Shown one piece after another: positions 1-28,123 of a stretch of DNA of 64,000 nucleotides (positions within the stretch are counted from its first letter, which is position 1; every line of letters starts with the position of its first letter). The notes below the pieces were generated by a model. That model was given only the letters and a program-made list of their open reading frames with translations. It was not told the DNA's origin and searched no databases. The stretch lies in sequence record OK254197.1. One strand, given 5' to 3'. Position numbers and translations under genes: made by a program. The DNA comes from Escherichia phage PNJ1902.

Positions 1-1317
1 ATGGAAGTATCAAGACCCTACGTTAATACGGTAGATGTTATTGATTTCGGAATAGATAAACGTTTCTTTCGTCTACCCGTTTCAGGAATATTAGCACAAG
101 AAGGTATTACACCTAATGGTCCTCAAATAGCAATTATTAATGCTCTAGAAGACCCTAGACATCGTTTTGTAACGGCGTGTGTATCACGCCGTGTGGGCAA
201 GTCCTTCATCGCATATACACTGGGGTTCCTAAAATTGCTGGAACCTAATGTGAAGGTGTTAGTAGTTGCCCCTAACTACTCACTGGCTAATATCGGATGG
301 TCTCAGATTCGTGGTCTCATTAAGAAGTATGGCCTACAAACCGAACGTGAGAACGCTAAAGATAAAGAGATTGAGCTGGCAAACGGCTCACTGTTTAAAC
401 TAGCTTCCGCGGCGCAGGCTGACTCAGCAGTCGGACGTTCATATGACTTTATCATCTTTGACGAGGCGGCAATTTCCGATGTAGGTGGTGATGCCTTCAG
501 AGTTCAGCTGCGTCCTACTCTAGATAAGCCTAATTCTAAGGCTCTATTTATCTCTACTCCTCGTGGGGGTAACTGGTTTAAAGAGTTTTATGCCTATGGA
601 TTTGATGATACATTACCTAACTGGGTATCTATTCATGGTACATATCGTGATAACCCACGTGCTGATCTGAATGATATCGAAGAAGCACGTCGTACAGTTA
701 GTAAAAACTACTTCCGTCAGGAATATGAGGCTGACTTCTCTGTATTCGAAGGTCAGATCTTTGATACCTTTAATGCTATTGATCATGTTAAAGACCTTAA
801 AGGTATGCGTCACTTCTTTAAAGATGATGAAGCATTCGAAACGTTGCTTGGCATTGACGTGGGTTATCGTGATCCTACAGCAGTTCTTACTATCAAGTAT
901 CACTATGATACGGATACTTACTATGTTTTAGAAGAGTACCAGCAGGCGGAGAAAACTACAGCTCAGCATGCTGCTTACATTCAGCACTGTATAGATCGTT
1001 ATAAAGTTGATCGTGTTTTTGTTGACTCTGCCGCAGCTCAATTCCGCCAGGATTTAGCTTATGAACATGAAATTGCATCAGCTCCAGCTAAAAAGTCTGT
1101 CCTAGACGGTCTAGCATGTTTACAGGCGTTATTCCAGCAGGGTAAGATTATTGTAGATGCTTCATGCTCTTCATTAATCCATGCATTGCAGAACTATAAG
1201 TGGGATTTCCAAGAAGGCGAAGAAAAATTATCACGTGAAAAACCACGTCATGATGCTAACTCTCACCTCTGTGATGCTCTGCGCTATGGAATTTACTCTA
1301 TTTCCCGTGGTAAATAA
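1..1317 (+). CDS. Terminase large subunit (ATPase/nuclease); ORF begins at window edge, N-terminus may be complete or truncated
   Basis: 438 aa; Walker A-like VSRRVGKS near N-terminus, Walker B-like FIIFDEAA, C-terminal nuclease-like acidic motifs; lies upstream of portal. Confidence 0.88.
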   Translation: MEVSRPYVNTVDVIDFGIDKRFFRLPVSGILAQEGITPNGPQIAIINALEDPRHRFVTACVSRRVGKSFIAYTLGFLKLLEPNVKVLVVAPNYSLANIGWSQIRGLIKKYGLQTERENAKDKEIELANGSLFKLASAAQADSAVGRSYDFIIFDEAAISDVGGDAFRVQLRPTLDKPNSKALFISTPRGGNWFKEFYAYGFDDTLPNWVSIHGTYRDNPRADLNDIEEARRTVSKNYFRQEYEADFSVFEGQIFDTFNAIDHVKDLKGMRHFFKDDEAFETLLGIDVGYRDPTAVLTIKYHYDTDTYYVLEEYQQAEKTTAQHAAYIQHCIDRYKVDRVFVDSAAAQFRQDLAYEHEIASAPAKKSVLDGLACLQALFQQGKIIVDASCSSLIHALQNYKWDFQEGEEKLSREKPRHDANSHLCDALRYGIYSISRGK

Positions 1318-1325
1318 ATAAGTAT

Positions 1326-1360
1326 AGGATGGGATACTACTCAGTTGGTATCCCATTCCT
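1326..1360 (+). terminator. Stable stem-loop just after terminase stop (possible attenuator/terminator or processing site)
   Basis: About 11 bp stem GGATGGGATAC/GTATCCCATTCC with 10 nt loop; weak U-tract after it. Confidence 0.3.
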
Positions 1361-1488
1361 GCATTTTAAAATCCCCTTTACAAATTCGATACGATTATGT
1401 ATACTATATTCATTGATCGGGAGAACTTCTCCCATAATAGAACGTAAACAAGAAAAATTAGTGCTCTACATGGGGTGTAGGAGATTCT

Positions 1489-2181
1489 ATGGGTCGACAA
1501 AAGCTAACAATAAAAGATATAAATACTAGATTAGCTGATCGTGGAATCCGAATTGTCGGTGAATATGTAAACCAACGTACAAAAACATTATTTATGTGCC
1601 AAAGAGCACACGTTTGGGAAGCAACGCCGCATTCTATACTTCATATGGGAAGGAGTTGCCCACATTGCGCTCCTAATAATATATCGCTAGATGAAGTTAA
1701 TAATAGGGTATCCAGTATAGGGTATACACTATTAAATAACTATACTAATGCAAAAACAAAACTGCATCTACGCTGTAACAATGGTCATGAATGCTATATT
1801 ACCTTAGATGGGTTGACGCAGGGTAGAAGATGTCCTTATTGCTCCCTTAAATGGGATAATGGTGGATTTCTCTATATCATGTCCTCCTCTATGGGTACTA
1901 AAGTAGGTATAAGTTTATACCCCGAGAAGCGGTTGAACGAGGTTAAAAGAGAGTCTGGATTTTCAGATTTATACTTGTTTACCACATATCATCTACCTGA
2001 TAGAGAAACTGCTCTAGATTTAGAAAAAGAAGTCCATAGAGAGTACTATAATAAAAACTGTGGGTTTTCAAAATTTACAGGAAGCACAGAATTTTTTAAT
2101 GTTGCTCCAGAGGATATAGTAGTCTTTCTAAGTAACTTTGGATTGGAGGAACATGGCCACCAATGTAAAATTCAAACGTGA
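1489..2181 (+). CDS. Putative endonuclease: two N-terminal zinc-ribbon-like motifs plus C-terminal T5orf172/GIY-YIG-superfamily-like domain
   Basis: 230 aa; repeated H...GRSCPHC / GRRCPYC motifs; GFLYIM..KVGIS..EKRLNE resembles a GIY-YIG core; C-terminal GSTEFF resembles the T5orf172 signature. Confidence 0.5.
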   Translation: MGRQKLTIKDINTRLADRGIRIVGEYVNQRTKTLFMCQRAHVWEATPHSILHMGRSCPHCAPNNISLDEVNNRVSSIGYTLLNNYTNAKTKLHLRCNNGHECYITLDGLTQGRRCPYCSLKWDNGGFLYIMSSSMGTKVGISLYPEKRLNEVKRESGFSDLYLFTTYHLPDRETALDLEKEVHREYYNKNCGFSKFTGSTEFFNVAPEDIVVFLSNFGLEEHGHQCKIQT

Positions 2182-2590
2182 CGCCATATCGATTATGCGT
2201 GACGGCATTAAATCTAGGTATAGGAGGGGTGATTGCTGTGCAATCTGTGGTAGTAATGATGACCTAGAGTTACATCATTATTTTACTATTTCTCAATTAG
2301 TTAAAAAATTCGCTAAAGAAAATCAATTAGATTTCACTGATGAGGAGATTACCCTATCTAATAGGGAAGCATTCTATAAGCAATATGAGCGAGAGCTAAT
2401 TGAAGAAGTAGTAACACTCTGCCAGCATCACCACCAACTATTACATAAGGTTTACACAAAAGAACCTCCTTTATTTTCTGCTAATAAGCAAAAAGTGTGG
2501 GTTCAAAAGCAGAAAGACAAATTACAGAATCCTCAAGAAAAGACACAAGTCAAGACTGAAACAAAATCAGGATTCGCAAGGTTCTTATAA
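2138..2590 (+). CDS. HNH endonuclease
   Basis: CCAIC...ELHH...CQHHHQLLH gives a classic HNH zinc-finger/catalytic motif; overlaps the previous ORF by 44 nt in another frame (alternative ATG at 2153); stop overlaps portal ATG (TAATG). Confidence 0.75.
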   Translation: MDWRNMATNVKFKRDAISIMRDGIKSRYRRGDCCAICGSNDDLELHHYFTISQLVKKFAKENQLDFTDEEITLSNREAFYKQYERELIEEVVTLCQHHHQLLHKVYTKEPPLFSANKQKVWVQKQKDKLQNPQEKTQVKTETKSGFARFL

Positions 2591-3807
2591 TGGGTTTTAA
2601 AAGCTGGATTACTGAAAAGCTAAATCCGGGTCAACGTATTATAAGAGACATGGAACCAGTTAGTCATCGCACTAACCGTAAGCCTTTTACCACTGGACAA
2701 GCCTACAGTAAAATTGAGATTCTCAATAGAACTGCTAATATGGTTATAGATAGTGCGGCGGAGTGTTCTTATACTGTCGGAGATAAATATAATATTGTCA
2801 CGTATGCTAACGGCATCAAGACAAAGACTCTAGACACTCTCTTAAATGTACGACCTAATCCATTCATGGATATAAGCACATTCCGTAGACTTGTAGTCAC
2901 TGACCTACTTTTTGAAGGTTGTGCATACATCTATTGGGATGGCACAGCACTTTATCATGTCCCGGCTGCTCTTATGCAGGTCGAGGCAGATGCCAATAAG
3001 TTTATCAAAAAATTTATATTTAATAATCAGATAAACTATCGCGTAGATGAGATTATCTTTATAAAGGATAACAGTTACGTGTGTGGCACAAACTCTCAAA
3101 TTTCTGGACAATCTCGTGTTGCCACTGTTATTGATTCTCTTGAGAAGCGTTCCAAGATGCTTAACTTTAAAGAGAAGTTCCTAGATAACGGAACCGTGAT
3201 TGGTCTTATTCTTGAGACGGATGAAATCCTGAACAAGAAATTGCGTGAGCGTAAACAAGAAGAATTACAACTAGATTATAATCCTAGTACTGGTCAGTCA
3301 TCTGTCCTGATTCTAGATGGTGGTATGAAAGCTAAACCGTACTCCCAAATATCCTCTTTTAAAGATCTAGACTTTAAGGAAGACATTGAAGGATTTAATA
3401 AATCCATCTGTCTAGCCTTTGGTGTTCCGCAAGTGTTACTTGATGGCGGTAATAATGCGAACATTCGACCAAATATCGAACTGTTCTATTACATGACTAT
3501 CATCCCTATGCTGAACAAGCTGACTAGTTCTCTTACTTTCTTTTTTGGTTATAAGATTACTCCTAATACTAAGGAAGTAGCTGCACTAACACCAGATAAA
3601 GAAGCTGAGGCTAAACATTTAACCTCATTGGTTAATAATGGTATTATGACTGGTAACGAAGCTCGTTTAGAGCTGAACCTTGAACCTTTAGATGATGAGC
3701 AGATGAATAAAATTCGTATTCCTGCCAACGTTGCTGGTTCTGCAACAGGGGTATCTGGTCAAGAAGGTGGCAGACCTCAAGGTTCCACCGAGGGAGATAA
3801 AGAATGA
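2590..3807 (+). CDS. Portal protein (pb7-like)
   Basis: 405 aa ORF between terminase and head genes; size matches my recollection of the T5 portal; overlaps downstream gene start (ATGA). Confidence 0.8.
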   Translation: MGFKSWITEKLNPGQRIIRDMEPVSHRTNRKPFTTGQAYSKIEILNRTANMVIDSAAECSYTVGDKYNIVTYANGIKTKTLDTLLNVRPNPFMDISTFRRLVVTDLLFEGCAYIYWDGTALYHVPAALMQVEADANKFIKKFIFNNQINYRVDEIIFIKDNSYVCGTNSQISGQSRVATVIDSLEKRSKMLNFKEKFLDNGTVIGLILETDEILNKKLRERKQEELQLDYNPSTGQSSVLILDGGMKAKPYSQISSFKDLDFKEDIEGFNKSICLAFGVPQVLLDGGNNANIRPNIELFYYMTIIPMLNKLTSSLTFFFGYKITPNTKEVAALTPDKEAEAKHLTSLVNNGIMTGNEARLELNLEPLDDEQMNKIRIPANVAGSATGVSGQEGGRPQGSTEGDKE

Positions 3808-4289
3808 TTGATTATAATGGTCTAAAGACCATTTTTGGTGAAAAACTACCAGAATCTCATATCTTCTTTGCTACGGTTGCTGCGCATAAATATGTTCCTA
3901 GCTATGCTTTTCTGCGTAGAGAACTAGGACTTTCATCTGCGCATACTAACCGTAAAGTATGGAAGAAATTTGTAGAGGCTTATGGTAAAGCAGTTCCACC
4001 GGCTCCACCATTAACTCTTTCTAAAGATTTAACTGCTAGCATGTCAGTTGAAGAGGGAGCAGCATTAACACTTTCTGTTACTGCAACTGGTGGTACTGGT
4101 CCATATACTTATGCATGGACTAAAGATGGTTCTCCTATTCCTGGTGCTTCAGGAGCTACCTATACTAAGCCTGCAGCAGCTACAGAGGATTCTGGAGCCT
4201 ATAAAGTAACTGTAACAGATAGTAAGCAAGTAAGCAAGGACTCTGCTACATGTGCTGTGACAGTTAATCCTACTGTTCCTGGAGGCTAA
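3804..4289 (+). CDS. Head decoration protein with C-terminal Ig-like domain (pb10-like)
   Basis: 161 aa; C-terminal GGTGPYTYAWTKDGSPIPGASGATYT...DSGAYKVTVTD is an Ig-like (I-set) signature; sits between portal and protease. Confidence 0.7.
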   Translation: MIDYNGLKTIFGEKLPESHIFFATVAAHKYVPSYAFLRRELGLSSAHTNRKVWKKFVEAYGKAVPPAPPLTLSKDLTASMSVEEGAALTLSVTATGGTGPYTYAWTKDGSPIPGASGATYTKPAAATEDSGAYKVTVTDSKQVSKDSATCAVTVNPTVPGG

Positions 4290-4292
4290 TAA

Positions 4293-4925
4293 ATGACACA
4301 AGCTGCTATTGACTATAACAAGTTAAAATCAGCACCCGTTCATTTAGATGCTTATATTAAATCTATTGATAGCGAATCCAAAGAGGGCGTTGTAAAAATC
4401 CGTGGATTCGCTAATACAATTAGTAAAGATCGCGCTGGTGATGTAATTCCTGCTTCTGCGTGGAAAACATCTAATGCACTTACTAACTATATGAAAAACC
4501 CGATTATTCTTTTCGGACACGATCATCGTCGTCCAATCGGTAAGTGTATTGATCTTAACCCTACTGAAATGGGTCTCGAAATCGAATGCGAGATCTATGA
4601 AAGTTCTGACCCGGCTATCTTTTCACTAATTAAAAACGGTGTACTGAAAACTTTTAGTATCGGATTCCGCTGCCTAGATGCAGAGTGGGATGAAGCTACT
4701 GATATATTTATTATTAAAGATTTAGAACTATACGAAGTTTCGGTAGTTTCTGTACCTTGTAATCAGGACTCAACGTTCAATCTCGCTAAGAGCATGAATG
4801 GTCATGATTATACTGAATGGCGTAAATCTTTTACTGCAATAAGTTCTAAAGCTGTCCCAGCTCAAGAACGTAATCTTTCTGAACTAGAAAAACTTGCGAT
4901 AGCTTTAGGCTACGTTAAAGAATAA
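4293..4925 (+). CDS. Prohead maturation protease (pb11-like, HK97-type)
   Basis: 210 aa ORF immediately upstream of major capsid gene; position and size as in T5. Confidence 0.75.
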   Translation: MTQAAIDYNKLKSAPVHLDAYIKSIDSESKEGVVKIRGFANTISKDRAGDVIPASAWKTSNALTNYMKNPIILFGHDHRRPIGKCIDLNPTEMGLEIECEIYESSDPAIFSLIKNGVLKTFSIGFRCLDAEWDEATDIFIIKDLELYEVSVVSVPCNQDSTFNLAKSMNGHDYTEWRKSFTAISSKAVPAQERNLSELEKLAIALGYVKE

Positions 4926-26284: not shown

Positions 26285-28123
26285 TTATTCTAGGTAGGAA
26301 AATCCTTCTGCATCTTTTTTGACAGTAATCTTATGAGCCAATGGATGCGTATGCCCATGAGAAACAATGATAGAGTTTAGACTTTCTTCCTCATTTAATA
26401 ATTCAACAAGAGTGTCAAGTCCTTTCGTATCAATAAAGCTAATTACTTCATCAAGGAATAGAAGATTAATATTAACTTTACTGATAGATGTTAGTAGCAT
26501 TCGAATAGCTAACAGAGTTGCTAGGTTGATTCTACTTTGCTGACCAGTAGAGCAGTTCTCCATACTGGTACGGTTTCCATCATTGAAGATTACTACTTGT
26601 AATTTCGTTTCATCAAGCTCAAATCCAAGTGCGAACTTACCACCAGTCATAATGGAAAGGTATTTATTGATAAGCTCTTCAAATACTTTCACACTATGCT
26701 CTAGCTTATATCCTACCAGATTCTTTAATGCAGCGATCAGAATATCGAGATCAGCAACAGCTTCTGATACCTCATCCAGTTTGGAAGTAATCTCAGACAT
26801 TTCTGCCTCAGCTTTCTCAATCTGTTCTAGTTTCGCTTTATATTTTGCATTGGCTAATTCGACATTTGCATTATGCTCTTTGGCAATTGCAACCTTAGAA
26901 CGGCCATCAGCTATTTCCTGTTCTAGTTGTCGGATTTGCACCTGTAGGATTTGCACATTGAGTTCTTCAAAAGAAGCATCACTCATTGAATTTTTGAACT
27001 CGTCTCTAGCTACCACTGCTTTATCCAAAGCATCCTTTGCTCTAATATACGCAGTGTATTCAAGTTGTTCTTTCTTCAGCTGTTCTAGCTTAGCTTCAAG
27101 AGATTGCTTCTCTTTGAACAGAGGATCATATTCTGTTCTAGCCATATCCATTGCTTTTTGAGCAGCAGTTGTATCCAGATGAGTACCACAAGTAGGACAT
27201 TCAGTATTTGAAGCCTCTTGCTTGAACTTCTGATAACGTTTCTTGACTTCGCCCGCACGTGAGGTCACAATCGTTAGGTCACGCGTAACACTTGAGATCT
27301 CTTCGTTTTGGTCAGTGGGCGCAGGCAAATTTTTGAAAGGCTCGAAAGATTGTTCGGCAACTTGTACAGCTTTGTCCAAATTACGCAATTTAGTAATATT
27401 AGCCTCTTGAGACTTGGCTAATGCCGCCTTAATTTTCGATTCAGTAAGTTCTTGTGCTAATGGCTCTTCATCAAACTCAGGCACTTCTACAGGTTCCTGC
27501 AAAGTTCCCAGATTATTCTTTCCATTAAGGATTTTCGTAATTACAGCCATTTGGCCCTGCAAATTATTCAAGGTATTTGCTATTTCTTTACGGTCAGCCT
27601 TAATAGTTTCCGACATTTCTTTATACTGTTCTTGATTGAACAAGTTAACAAGAAAAGCCTTACGTGTCGCATCTGTTGCTTTTAGGAAGTCTAGATTTGA
27701 ACCCACTGATTGATAGATTAGTTTAGTGAATGTTTGGAAGTCACCGCCCATAATCTCTTCAATCATCTTGTACGTTTGGGTTGCCGTGTGTCCACTAATA
27801 TCTTCTCCATTCTTAATAAGAGTTACTTTAGCAGTTGACTTAACTACTTTATGCAGTTCGTACTCATCTTCATCTTTCGAGAAGTAAGCGTGCATATCAT
27901 ACTCTTTTTTCGGAGAAGACCAAGAGAACAGAGCATCCTTCTTAATACCACGTGAGTTCTTATTATAGAATAGTTCTTCAATAACAGTGGCGATGGTGGA
28001 TTTCCCTAGCCCGTTGCCACCAATTAGTTGAGTAACTGGATTCTTATCGAAATGAATTACGATGTCCTTACCGTAAGACATAACGTTACTAAATTTTAGT
28101 GTCTTAATTGTAATCTTTGACAT
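26285..28123 (-). CDS. SbcC/Rad50-like recombination ATPase (D13-like)
   Basis: Walker A GGNGLGKST near N-terminus, long coiled-coil middle, CPTCG zinc hook, C-terminal signature region; start moved to internal ATG (MSKITIKTL...). Confidence 0.85.
   Translation of the reverse strand: MSKITIKTLKFSNVMSYGKDIVIHFDKNPVTQLIGGNGLGKSTIATVIEELFYNKNSRGIKKDALFSWSSPKKEYDMHAYFSKDEDEYELHKVVKSTAKVTLIKNGEDISGHTATQTYKMIEEIMGGDFQTFTKLIYQSVGSNLDFLKATDATRKAFLVNLFNQEQYKEMSETIKADRKEIANTLNNLQGQMAVITKILNGKNNLGTLQEPVEVPEFDEEPLAQELTESKIKAALAKSQEANITKLRNLDKAVQVAEQSFEPFKNLPAPTDQNEEISSVTRDLTIVTSRAGEVKKRYQKFKQEASNTECPTCGTHLDTTAAQKAMDMARTEYDPLFKEKQSLEAKLEQLKKEQLEYTAYIRAKDALDKAVVARDEFKNSMSDASFEELNVQILQVQIRQLEQEIADGRSKVAIAKEHNANVELANAKYKAKLEQIEKAEAEMSEITSKLDEVSEAVADLDILIAALKNLVGYKLEHSVKVFEELINKYLSIMTGGKFALGFELDETKLQVVIFNDGNRTSMENCSTGQQSRINLATLLAIRMLLTSISKVNINLLFLDEVISFIDTKGLDTLVELLNEEESLNSIIVSHGHTHPLAHKITVKKDAEGFSYLE

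What the first reader, a model, noticed from the sequence alone, without database searches (positions are those of the whole stretch)
1318..2592. Tandem nuclease ORFs (Zn-ribbon/T5orf172-GIY-YIG-like plus HNH) inserted between terminase and portal
The terminase-portal junction is normally tight in siphophage head modules. Here about 1.27 kb is inserted, starting with a strong hairpin, then a 230-aa protein with duplicated zinc-ribbon-like motifs and a GIY-YIG-superfamily-like core (GFLYI...KVGIS...R...E, C-terminal GSTEFF), then an HNH endonuclease overlapping it by 44 nt in another frame. The HNH stop overlaps the portal ATG. This could be a homing-endonuclease-type mobile cassette, or an HNH that cooperates with terminase in DNA packaging. 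The two-nuclease arrangement with an out-of-frame overlap might also reflect a decayed or frameshift-linked single gene.
Basis: partly seen in the sequence, partly recalled or inferred. Interest (0 to 1): 0.55.

Follow-up and report, generated by a model that had tools for sequence, protein, structure and literature searches.

The report
T5 homing endonuclease beside resident nickase
In this T5-like phage, only the first of the two nuclease genes between terminase and portal is an insertion (a probable selfish homing endonuclease found in about one relative in six). The second is the phage's own, already characterised DNA-nicking enzyme, so the locus is essentially known biology.

Summary
The window comes from a T5-like phage, closest to Salmonella phage SP01.

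- **ORF1 (1489-2181)** is the homologue of T5.154. It has two CapR/DUF4379-type zinc-finger modules and a T5orf172 (GIY-YIG-fold) nuclease domain, the known architecture of free-standing phage homing endonucleases.
- **ORF2 (true start ATG 2153, to 2590)** is the homologue of T5.153, the nicking endonuclease sciA. Its structure is solved (PDB 9qgv, 9qgx).

The nickase is a single-copy core gene upstream of portal in 899 phage records. ORF1 is polymorphic. About 73 of roughly 472 T5-like records carry it intact, about 25 carry decayed remnants, and the rest have a clean 114-nt terminase-nickase spacer.

The hairpin (1327-1358) and promoter (1377-1405) also occur at empty sites, so they are resident. 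The real insert starts at 1414.

ORF1 is completely linked to a deeply diverged allele of the first 91 nickase codons (67-78% nt identity), while the flanks are 95-99% identical and mix freely between carriers and non-carriers. Klebsiella Sugarlandviruses show the same pattern.

The best reading is a promoter-less homing cassette that co-converts the 5' part of sciA. A single two-nuclease mobile unit, a frameshift fusion and an HK97-style packaging HNH are not supported. Homing itself was not demonstrated.

The parts
1..1317 (+). Terminase large subunit (T5.155 homologue). Left flank, not part of the element.
   Evidence: Pfam Terminase_6N 7.7e-15 and Terminase_6C 4.2e-11. Annotated TerL in T5 and relatives.
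1327..1358 (+). Resident intrinsic-terminator hairpin after TerL (13-pair stem followed by a T-run). NOT part of the insertion.
   Evidence: Terminator scan. dG -20.7, z -4.9. Essentially identical (one stem substitution each in DaisyDussoix and HildyBeyeler) in empty-site phages such as DaisyDussoix and SP3.
1377..1405 (+). Resident sigma-70-type promoter, TTTACA-17-TATACT. It drives the nickase-portal operon, and the inserted gene uses it.
   Evidence: 10 of 12 consensus match. Lies within the 'putative promoter' annotated in T5 st0 AY692264. Conserved at empty sites.
1414..2152 (+). DNA present only in carrier genomes: ORF1 leader, ORF1, and a replacement ribosome-binding site for the nickase. 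Homology with empty sites breaks after ...TATATTCAT (1413).
   Evidence: Alignments A1. TerL-to-nickase gap is 834-835 nt in carriers and 114 nt at empty sites.
1419..1433 (+). Small inverted repeat GGGAGAACTTCTCCC at the left edge of the insert. Role unknown, and it is kept as a footprint in HildyBeyeler.
   Evidence: dG -9.1, z -1.7, not significant on its own. Retained in HildyBeyeler, DT57C and smaug.
1489..2181 (+). ORF1, 230 aa, the T5.154 homologue: putative free-standing homing endonuclease. Zinc-finger module 1 is about aa 5-61 (nt 1501-1671), module 2 about aa 64-120 (nt 1678-1848), and the T5orf172/GIY-YIG nuclease is aa 126-211 (nt 1864-2121).
2145..2150 (+). Shine-Dalgarno-like GGAGGA for the nickase, embedded in the 3' end of ORF1.
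   Evidence: Read from the sequence. Replaces the GAGGAG found at empty sites.
2153..2590 (+). Nicking endonuclease (T5.153 / T5p149 / sciA homologue), 145 aa, His-Me-finger (HNH) type. A resident core gene.
   Evidence: PDB 9qgv and 9qgx 'Nicking endonuclease', E 2e-83. Annotated sciA in DT57C. 899 records, single copy.
2153..2425 (+). The 5' 273 nt (codons 1-91) of the nickase gene: the allele segment inherited together with ORF1 (co-conversion or immunity tract).
   Evidence: All 45 fixed differences between carrier/remnant and empty classes fall at nt 6-273. 67-78% identity between classes against 95-99% in the flanks. dS 1.3 to saturated here, 0.1-0.3 downstream.
2590..3807 (+). Portal protein. 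Right flank, with its ATG overlapping the nickase stop.
   Evidence: Pfam Phage_portal 1.8e-50.
27318..27325 (+). GGCGCAGG, predicted nick between 27318 and 27319: a conserved substrate site of the nickase, homologous to a major T5 single-chain interruption.
   Evidence: Motif search. T5 misc_feature at 78573-78574. Alignment A3. Consensus R/GCGCRGG cited in PMC3517423.

Best explanation
Two unrelated nuclease genes lie side by side.

ORF2 (2153-2590) is the phage's own late-expressed site-specific nickase, sciA. It makes the single-strand interruptions typical of T5 virion DNA at R/GCGCRGG-type sites, one of which is conserved at window 27318. It is a core gene that sits immediately upstream of portal throughout the Demerecviridae.

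ORF1 (1489-2181) is a free-standing homing endonuclease gene with two zinc-finger DNA-binding modules and a T5orf172/GIY-YIG nuclease. It has no promoter of its own. It is inserted between the resident promoter (1377-1405) and the nickase start codon, and its 3' end supplies a new ribosome-binding site for the nickase.

Inferred mechanism: when a carrier and a non-carrier phage co-infect a cell, the ORF1 protein cuts the non-carrier genome in or near the 5' part of its nickase gene. Resection then proceeds to the highly conserved flanks, the promoter region on the left and the HHHQLLH-coding segment on the right. Repair from the carrier genome copies ORF1 together with the first ~273 nt of the carrier's nickase allele, which is presumed resistant to cutting.

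Once fixed, ORF1 decays (DT57C, smaug, HildyBeyeler) while the linked nickase allele stays.

Shown here: gene identities, folds, presence/absence and remnant states, cassette boundaries, complete linkage, mixing of flanks, and purifying selection on ORF1.

Inferred only: nuclease activity of ORF1, its target site, and biased inheritance.
For: Identities:
- ORF1 is zinc fingers plus a T5orf172/GIY-YIG fold.
- ORF2 is the T5 nicking endonuclease sciA, with a solved structure. The crystallised variants differ from wild type only at the second His of LELHHY.

Core versus accessory:
- The nickase is in 899 records, 902 places.
- ORF1 at >=80% identity is in only 81 records.
- Cassette DNA is in 98 records, 73 of them full length, out of 472 with TerL-portal DNA.

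Junction classes:
- full, gap 834-835 nt;
- remnant, gap 517-518 nt (DT57C, smaug);
- footprint, 260 nt (HildyBeyeler);
- empty, 114 nt (17 of the 33 Tequintavirus/Epseptimavirus loci classified (L001-L006, L008-L034; 34 loci scanned, including one Sugarlandvirus), plus SP3, an empty-type allele with a 38-nt deletion).

Cassette and movement:
- Sharp boundaries at 1413/1414 and nickase nt ~273, with complete linkage in 32 loci.
- In TerL and portal, nearest neighbours alternate between carriers and non-carriers. IrisVonRoten (carrier) is 99.6% identical to an empty-site phage in the nickase 3' end and portal stretch (nickase nt 274 onward plus the first ~1250 nt of portal).
- ORF1 dN/dS is about 0.09, with dS 0.6 against T5.

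Independent replicate: in Klebsiella Sugarlandviruses, 8 of 80 records carry a 53%-identical ORF1 at the same site. It is again linked to a divergent nickase 5' end (58-71% identity against >=96% in the flanks).

Literature:
- CapR-type zinc finger plus T5orf172 is a described homing-endonuclease architecture, and 35% of such genes lie near terminase genes (PMC10448857).
- Free-standing phage endonucleases cut at a distance, co-convert flanks, and are often promoter-less cassettes (PMC2988022).
- Erwinia phage Key has the nickase but not the endonuclease (PMC10194208).
Against: - No cleavage or inheritance data exist for T5.154 or this homologue in anything I could read.
- The target site is not identified.
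- The right boundary of the linked tract is the same in all 32 loci. Repeated independent homing events might be expected to leave variable tract ends. The uniform edge could simply mark where 30% divergence gives way to near-identity.
- Strong purifying selection on ORF1 fits an actively homing gene equally well as a gene useful to the phage.
Confidence: 0.8

Rival explanations
1. ORF1 is a domesticated nuclease that benefits the phage, for example by excluding competing T5-like phages, attacking a satellite as ICP1 Odn does, or processing DNA. Its patchy distribution would then reflect accessory-gene gain and loss by ordinary recombination, not biased homing.
For: - dN/dS about 0.09 shows strong constraint.
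- T5orf172 nucleases have been domesticated elsewhere: Odn and CapR (PMC10448857).
- The tract boundaries are uniform.
Against: - Several independent decay states exist.
- About 80% of close relatives do without it.
- The zinc-finger plus T5orf172 architecture and the position next to terminase are typical of homing genes.
- The linked divergent allele of the neighbouring gene is the classic homing signature.
Confidence: 0.12
2. ORF1 was ancestral at this site. Today's pattern would come only from repeated deletion and decay plus homologous recombination of the flanks, with no active endonuclease-driven spread.
For: - Remnants and footprints show that deletion does occur.
- A homologue sits at the same site in a different genus.
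Against: - Empty sites are clean and uniform (114 nt), carry no footprint, and have their own distinct nickase allele.
- Distant subfamilies (Vibrio phage Ceto, Erwinia phage Key) lack ORF1.
- Intact copies are under purifying selection.
Confidence: 0.05
3. The HNH protein is a packaging accessory that works with terminase, like the HK97-type HNH proteins needed for end cleavage.
For: - Its position between TerL and portal is conserved.
- T5 annotations name TerS as 'probable sciB, involved in formation of single-chain interruptions'. This suggests that nicking is coupled to packaging.
Against: - Viable nick-less T5 mutants are reported (PMC3517423).
- Natural isolates carry frameshifting deletions in the gene: SP3 38 nt, pKMKP103 74 nt.
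- In Proteus phage PM135 it is separated from TerL by the receptor-binding protein gene.
- The depositors of the solved structure call it a nicking endonuclease.
Confidence: 0.02
4. ORF1 and the HNH ORF are two halves of one gene, joined by a programmed +1 frameshift or split by decay.
For: The two ORFs overlap out of frame.
Against: - The nickase is a stand-alone gene with its own ribosome-binding site at all empty sites.
- It was crystallised alone as about 145 aa.
- The overlap length varies: 11 nt in T5 and 29 nt here, because TAA became CAA.
- The two are unrelated folds with different distributions.
Confidence: 0.01

Closest known systems
Phage T5 gene T5.154 (T5p150, ORF143-type 'endonuclease'), annotated 'putative homing endonuclease' in the BASEL phages (bas32_0003) and 'T5orf172 domain-containing protein' or 'GIY-YIG nuclease family protein' elsewhere
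   Same: 87% amino-acid identity, the same position between TerL and the nickase, and the same domain order.
   Different: The window copy, shared with SP01, belongs to a diverged cassette lineage: dS 0.6 against T5, and 85% nt identity across the cassette. It also has a 6-aa C-terminal extension because the T5 stop codon TAA is CAA here.
Phage T5 nicking endonuclease sciA (T5.153 / T5p149; PDB 9qgv, 9qgx)
   Same: 86% identity over the full 145 aa. The CxxC...LELHH...C.HHHQLLH motifs, the position upstream of portal, and a conserved T5 major nick site in the genome all match.
   Different: The first 91 codons are a distinct 'window-type' allele, 78% nt identity to the T5 type and about 69% to the empty-site type. 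I could not test whether this changes site specificity.
T5orf172 homing endonucleases of Vibrio phage ICP1 and relatives (Barth, Dunham and Seed 2023, PMC10448857)
   Same: CapR-type zinc-finger repeats followed by a T5orf172 nuclease. They are free-standing, lie next to terminase or structural genes, and sit at boundaries of genetic exchange.
   Different: Only distant sequence similarity. No intron or 'HEG island' is involved here. The cassette is about 1 kb and includes part of the neighbouring nickase gene.
Free-standing GIY-YIG (Seg) endonucleases of phage T4, e.g. SegG and SegF
   Same: An intergenic, promoter-less cassette that uses an upstream resident promoter. The presumed target lies in the neighbouring gene, with co-conversion of flanking sequence (PMC2988022).
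   Different: The nuclease subfamily differs (T5orf172 rather than classic GIY-YIG), and so does the DNA-binding domain (zinc fingers rather than helix-turn-helix). Homing is shown experimentally for the Seg genes, not for this one.
HK97-type HNH proteins of packaging modules (Kala et al. 2014, as cited in PMC10448857)
   Same: A small HNH protein encoded next to terminase genes.
   Different: Here the HNH makes site-specific nicks, is reported dispensable, and lies downstream of TerL rather than upstream of TerS.

Membership tests
T5orf172 / GIY-YIG superfamily nuclease (ORF1) | Match to Pfam PF10544 above the gathering score | tested here: met
   36.1 bits against a cut-off of 20, aa 126-211. 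The related MUG113 scores 35.9 against 22.3.
T5orf172 / GIY-YIG superfamily nuclease (ORF1) | GIY-YIG fold (beta-beta-alpha-beta-alpha core) with a conserved Tyr, Arg and metal-binding Glu | tested here: met
T5orf172 / GIY-YIG superfamily nuclease (ORF1) | Metal-dependent DNA cleavage | not testable with these tools
   Needs purified protein.
Free-standing homing endonuclease gene (ORF1) | Presence/absence polymorphism at one site among closely related genomes, with clean empty sites | tested here: met
   Gaps of 834-835 nt against 114 nt. 73 full, about 25 partial, out of about 472 records. Alignments.
Free-standing homing endonuclease gene (ORF1) | Distribution that disagrees with the phylogeny of the flanking genes (horizontal spread) | tested here: met
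   Nearest neighbours in TerL and portal alternate between carriers and non-carriers. Between-class identity equals within-class identity in the flanks.
Free-standing homing endonuclease gene (ORF1) | Co-conversion of flanking sequence, or a cleavage-resistant allele in the carrier | tested here: inconclusive
   A linked divergent tract (nickase nt 6-273) is present and replicated in Sugarlandvirus. Resistance to cutting and the origin of the tract were not tested.
Free-standing homing endonuclease gene (ORF1) | Site-specific cleavage of the gene-less allele and super-Mendelian inheritance in mixed infection | not testable with these tools
   Requires phage crosses and in vitro cleavage.
T5 sciA nicking endonuclease, His-Me finger (HNH) (ORF2) | Full-length homology to the characterised T5 protein | tested here: met
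   E 2.2e-83 to PDB 9qgv 'Nicking endonuclease', aa 6-150 of the TTG ORF against 4-148. 86% identity to T5.153.
T5 sciA nicking endonuclease, His-Me finger (HNH) (ORF2) | HNH profile match | tested here: inconclusive
   Pfam HNH_2 scores 13.9 bits against a cut-off of 21. phrog_8048 HNH endonuclease 8e-7. The motifs CAIC...LELHH...LCQHHHQLLH are conserved across all alleles.
T5 sciA nicking endonuclease, His-Me finger (HNH) (ORF2) | Conserved single-copy gene upstream of portal in Demerecviridae | tested here: met
   899 records, 902 places. Synteny holds in T5, DaisyDussoix, Sugarland, Ceto and PM135.
T5 sciA nicking endonuclease, His-Me finger (HNH) (ORF2) | Cognate nick sites (R/GCGCRGG) in the genome, on one strand | tested here: met
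   Four matches on the + strand and none on the - strand. The one at 27318 aligns to the annotated T5 major interruption.
HK97-type packaging HNH | Required together with terminase for genome end cleavage | not testable with these tools
   The literature cited in PMC3517423 reports viable nick-less T5 mutants. Natural frameshifting deletions in SP3 and pKMKP103 argue against an essential role.

The most novel reading that the evidence does not exclude
ORF1 and the first 91 codons of the sciA nickase form one co-inherited module that exists in at least three deeply diverged forms: window type, T5 type and empty-site type. The same linkage is repeated independently in Klebsiella Sugarlandviruses. 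In this reading the endonuclease targets the nickase gene itself, and an arms race between cutter and target has diversified the catalytic and DNA-recognition part of the nickase. That could change where different T5-like phages nick their genomes.
Probability: 0.25. Interest if true: 0.5.

Novelty: already known. Interest (0 to 1): 0.27.

Why it matters
There is little here that is new. Both genes are orthologues of T5 genes already annotated as 'putative homing endonuclease' and 'nicking endonuclease'. The nickase has a solved structure, and the variable presence of the endonuclease has been noted in print for phage Key.

The useful results are corrective:
- the insert is about 0.72 kb, not 1.27 kb;
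- the hairpin and promoter are resident;
- the nickase start is ATG 2153.

There is also one population-level observation that I did not find described: complete linkage between the endonuclease and a deeply diverged 5' allele of sciA, replicated in a second genus. It gives a concrete, cheap experimental system of natural carrier, remnant and empty phages, several of them in the BASEL collection. That system could test homing by a T5orf172 nuclease, and whether nickase alleles differ in specificity.

Tried and rejected
- **The search for homologous proteins for ORF1:** only 4 proteins. The exhaustive HMMER search gave 11,352 relatives. Most of the best-scoring ones were long arrays of the zinc-finger module rather than full-length homologues.
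- **NCBIfam:** no meaningful hit for either protein.
- **PDB sequence search for ORF1:** only spurious ankyrin-repeat matches.
- **Literature:** the paper describing PDB 9qgv/9qgx was not found. Zivanovic et al. 2014 on T5 morphogenesis genes is not held. Two searches failed on the 3-character minimum term length.
- **ORF1 paralogues in the 64-kb window:** none at E<0.01, although the SP01 genome has 5 matching places overall.
- **tRNA scan of the window:** none.
- **An ORF1-specific promoter in 1414-1488:** none reached the scan threshold.
- **The small hairpin at 1419-1433:** not significant against shuffles.
- **Rejected:** Reasons are given under the rival explanations.
Full report
**What the window is.** The first 4.3 kb match T5-like phages over their full length. 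The best match is Salmonella phage SP01 at 96.4%, and T5 itself is 92.4%. The gene order is TerL (1-1317), ORF1 (1489-2181), ORF2 (2138/2153-2590), portal (2590-3807). In T5 the two middle genes are T5.154 ('endonuclease') and T5.153. Newer annotations call them 'putative homing endonuclease' or 'T5orf172 domain-containing protein', and 'nicking endonuclease'.

**Checking the observation.**
- The hairpin at 1327-1358 folds at -20.7 kcal/mol (z -4.9) and is followed by a T-run.
- ORF1 has two homologous zinc-finger modules. BLASTP of one half against the other gives E 5e-10. Pfam gives CapR 6.7e-8 and DUF4379 3.1e-7.
- ORF1 also has a C-terminal T5orf172 domain at 36.1 bits against a cut-off of 20.
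- An AlphaFold model from a 14-sequence alignment (mean pLDDT 86.7) has the beta-beta-alpha-beta-alpha core.
- C37/C57/C60, C96/H100/C115/C118 and Y129/K138/G140/R148/E179/E201 are invariant.
- ORF2's stop overlaps the portal ATG as TAATG.

Two details need correcting.
- **Start codon.** ORF2 begins at ATG 2153, not TTG 2138. The solved T5 protein begins MATN, and homology with phages that lack ORF1 begins exactly at this ATG. The overlap with ORF1 is therefore 29 nt. In T5 it is 11 nt, and the difference arises because T5's TAA stop codon is CAA here.
- **HNH call.** By Pfam alone it is sub-threshold, HNH_2 at 13.9 against 21.

**What ORF2 is.** It is 86% identical over its whole length to PDB 9qgv and 9qgx, 'Nicking endonuclease' (E 2e-83). 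The two crystallised variants differ from the native T5 sequence only at the second His of LELHHY, as expected for catalytic mutants of a His-Me finger.

The DT57C record names the gene sciA, 'nicking site-specific endonuclease (T5p149)'. Together with the T5 st0 record, it names the small terminase 'probable sciB, involved in formation of single-chain interruptions'. PMC3517423 adds three points:
- sciA and sciB were mapped to the late region;
- nick-less mutants are viable;
- the major T5 nicks share the consensus R/GCGCRGG.

That motif occurs four times in the window, all on the + strand. The copy at 27318 aligns base for base with the 'major DNA single-chain interruption' annotated in T5 at 78573-78574. 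The enzyme's substrate is therefore in the window as well.

By tblastn the nickase is present once in each of 899 phage records, spanning Escherichia, Salmonella, Klebsiella, Vibrio, Proteus, Providencia, Serratia and Aeromonas phages. It lies directly upstream of portal even in Vibrio phage Ceto (81 nt after TerL) and in Proteus phage PM135. It is a resident core gene.

**What ORF1 is.** ORF1 at >=80% identity occurs in only 81 records. Everything else is a <60% paralogue elsewhere in T5-like genomes or in unrelated phages.

I classified the TerL-nickase junction in 34 loci (with alignments).

| Junction class | TerL-nickase gap | Examples |
|---|---|---|
| Full ORF1 | 834-835 nt | T5, SP01, IrisVonRoten |
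| Remnant (nuclease domain deleted; start codon also mutated in DT57C) | 517-518 nt | DT57C, smaug |
| Footprint (only the left ~60 nt of the insert remain) | 260 nt | HildyBeyeler |
| Empty site | 114 nt | 17 loci, e.g. DaisyDussoix; SP3 also has the empty-type allele, with a 38-nt deletion |

Across the whole phage collection, the cassette DNA is found in 98 records, 73 of them full length. That is out of 472 records sharing the TerL-portal region. [quoted passage not shown]

**Anatomy of the insertion.** The terminator hairpin and a promoter, TTTACA-17-TATACT at 1377-1405, are essentially identical in empty-site phages; the hairpin stem carries a single substitution in DaisyDussoix and in HildyBeyeler. 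The promoter lies within the 'putative promoter' annotated in T5 st0. Both are therefore resident.

Homology breaks right after ...TATATTCAT at 1413. At empty sites the promoter is followed by GAGGAG-N6-ATG of the nickase. In carriers it is followed by ORF1, whose last codons supply a new GGAGGA and the nickase ATG. No promoter of ORF1's own was detected. It is a promoter-less cassette, as is common for T4 seg and mob genes (PMC2988022).

**The linked nickase allele.** Sliding-window comparison shows carriers and non-carriers are equally similar in TerL (88-99%) and from nickase nt ~300 into portal (95-99%). In the first ~300 nt of the nickase they are only 67-78% identical.
- All 45 fixed differences between classes lie at nickase nt 6-273. 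The sequence becomes near-identical exactly at the codons for HHHQLLH.
- Remnant and footprint genomes carry the carrier-type allele.
- Linkage is complete in 32 loci.
- In codons 1-91, dS is 1.3 between the window type and the T5 type and saturated against the empty type. In codons 92-145 it is 0.1-0.3.
- There are thus at least three old alleles of the cassette. The window, SP01, vB_Sen_I1 and HildyBeyeler share one of them.

In the flanks, nearest neighbours alternate between classes. IrisVonRoten (carrier), for example, is 99.6% identical to an empty-site phage from nickase nt 274 through the first ~1250 nt of portal. The cassette therefore moves, or is retained, independently of the genomic background. 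ORF1 itself is under purifying selection, with a median dN/dS of 0.09.

**Independent replicate.** In Klebsiella Sugarlandviruses, 8 of 80 records carry a 53%-identical ORF1 homologue at the same position, among them the type phage Sugarland. Against IME260, which lacks it, the flanks are 96-100% identical. The first ~150 nt of the nickase are only 58-71% identical.

**Mechanism.** The best-supported reading is a free-standing homing endonuclease. Its target lies in or next to the 5' part of the sciA gene of non-carrier phages. Double-strand-break repair from a carrier copies the whole heterologous block (1414 to ~2425) using the conserved arms on either side. Decay follows once the gene is fixed.

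This matches what is described for T4 Seg/Mob genes (PMC2988022) and for T5orf172 genes of ICP1-like phages. About 41% of those carry CapR-type fingers and 35% lie near terminase genes (PMC10448857). The nuclease activity, the cut site and biased inheritance remain inferred.

**Rivals.**
- *Domesticated, beneficial nuclease.* Not excluded: constraint is strong and tract edges are uniform. It fits poorly with the repeated decay and the absence of the gene from about 80% of relatives.
- *Ancestral gene lost repeatedly.* Contradicted by clean, uniform empty sites with their own nickase allele, and by its absence from distant subfamilies.
- *HK97-style packaging HNH.* Argued against by viable nick-less mutants (literature). 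Frameshifting deletions in the nickase of SP3 (38 nt) and pKMKP103 (74 nt) point the same way. The sciB = TerS annotation does hint that nicking is coupled to packaging.
- *Frameshift fusion.* Excluded for practical purposes.

**Verdict.** Both genes are already known from T5, and the nickase has a solved structure. I therefore rate the finding as already known and of modest interest.

One element I did not find described is the complete, replicated linkage between the endonuclease and a deeply diverged 5' allele of the nickase gene. It offers a ready natural system for testing homing by a T5orf172 nuclease.

Noticed in passing
window 27318-27325 (+ strand): GTGG|GCGCAGGC aligns exactly to the 'major DNA single-chain interruption' annotated in T5 (AY543070 78573-78574, inside the D13 SbcC-like gene). 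It is therefore a conserved nick site for the nickase encoded at 2153-2590. All four RGCGCRGG matches in the window (411, 16065, 27318, 48366) are on the + strand and none on the - strand.
   Followed up: partly
L033 (Salmonella phage SP3), nickase gene, about locus 3001-3397: The empty-type nickase allele carries a 38-nt internal deletion, which shifts the frame. This could be a natural nick-less phage or a sequencing error.
   Followed up: partly
L007 (Klebsiella phage pKMKP103), nickase gene, relative to Sugarland L037 2286-2360: A 74-nt deletion inside the nickase gene of a phage that carries the endonuclease. The gene is annotated as a truncated 119-aa hypothetical protein.
   Followed up: partly
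window about 1100-1413 and 2426-4300, with the same regions in L001-L034: Nucleotide identity among all T5-like phages is unusually high right next to the cassette: 96-99% in the last ~200 nt of TerL plus the spacer, and 95-99% across the nickase 3' end and the first ~1.4 kb of portal. Further into TerL it is 86-94%. It drops to 65-85% from about 1.8 kb right of the nickase start, at the decoration-protein gene. This could reflect homogenisation by gene conversion spreading out from the homing site, or simply constraint.
   Followed up: no
L005 and L015 (DT57C, DT571/2), L006 (smaug, Epseptimavirus), L032: Phages from two genera share near-identical remnants of the endonuclease gene: N-terminal 48 codons kept, nuclease domain deleted, gap 517-518 nt. 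The decayed cassette itself therefore seems to have spread, or to have persisted for a long time.
   Followed up: partly
L040 (Proteus phage PM135): The receptor-binding tail protein gene lies between TerL and the nickase. The TerL-nickase junction thus accepts other insertions or rearrangements in more distant Demerecviridae.
   Followed up: no
search result, relatives of window 1489-1850: The zinc-finger module of ORF1 occurs in very long tandem arrays, with up to 14 matched stretches in proteins of 1000-1600 aa, among 11,352 relatives in metagenomic proteins. The function of such arrays was not examined.
   Followed up: no
one search hit H274 (OR846838.1 'Listeria phage LM 4-11-1') and the 'Listeria' and 'Campylobacter' hits: Records labelled as Listeria or Campylobacter phages carry T5-like DNA about 95% identical to this locus. 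This probably reflects mislabelled or contaminated database entries.
   Followed up: no
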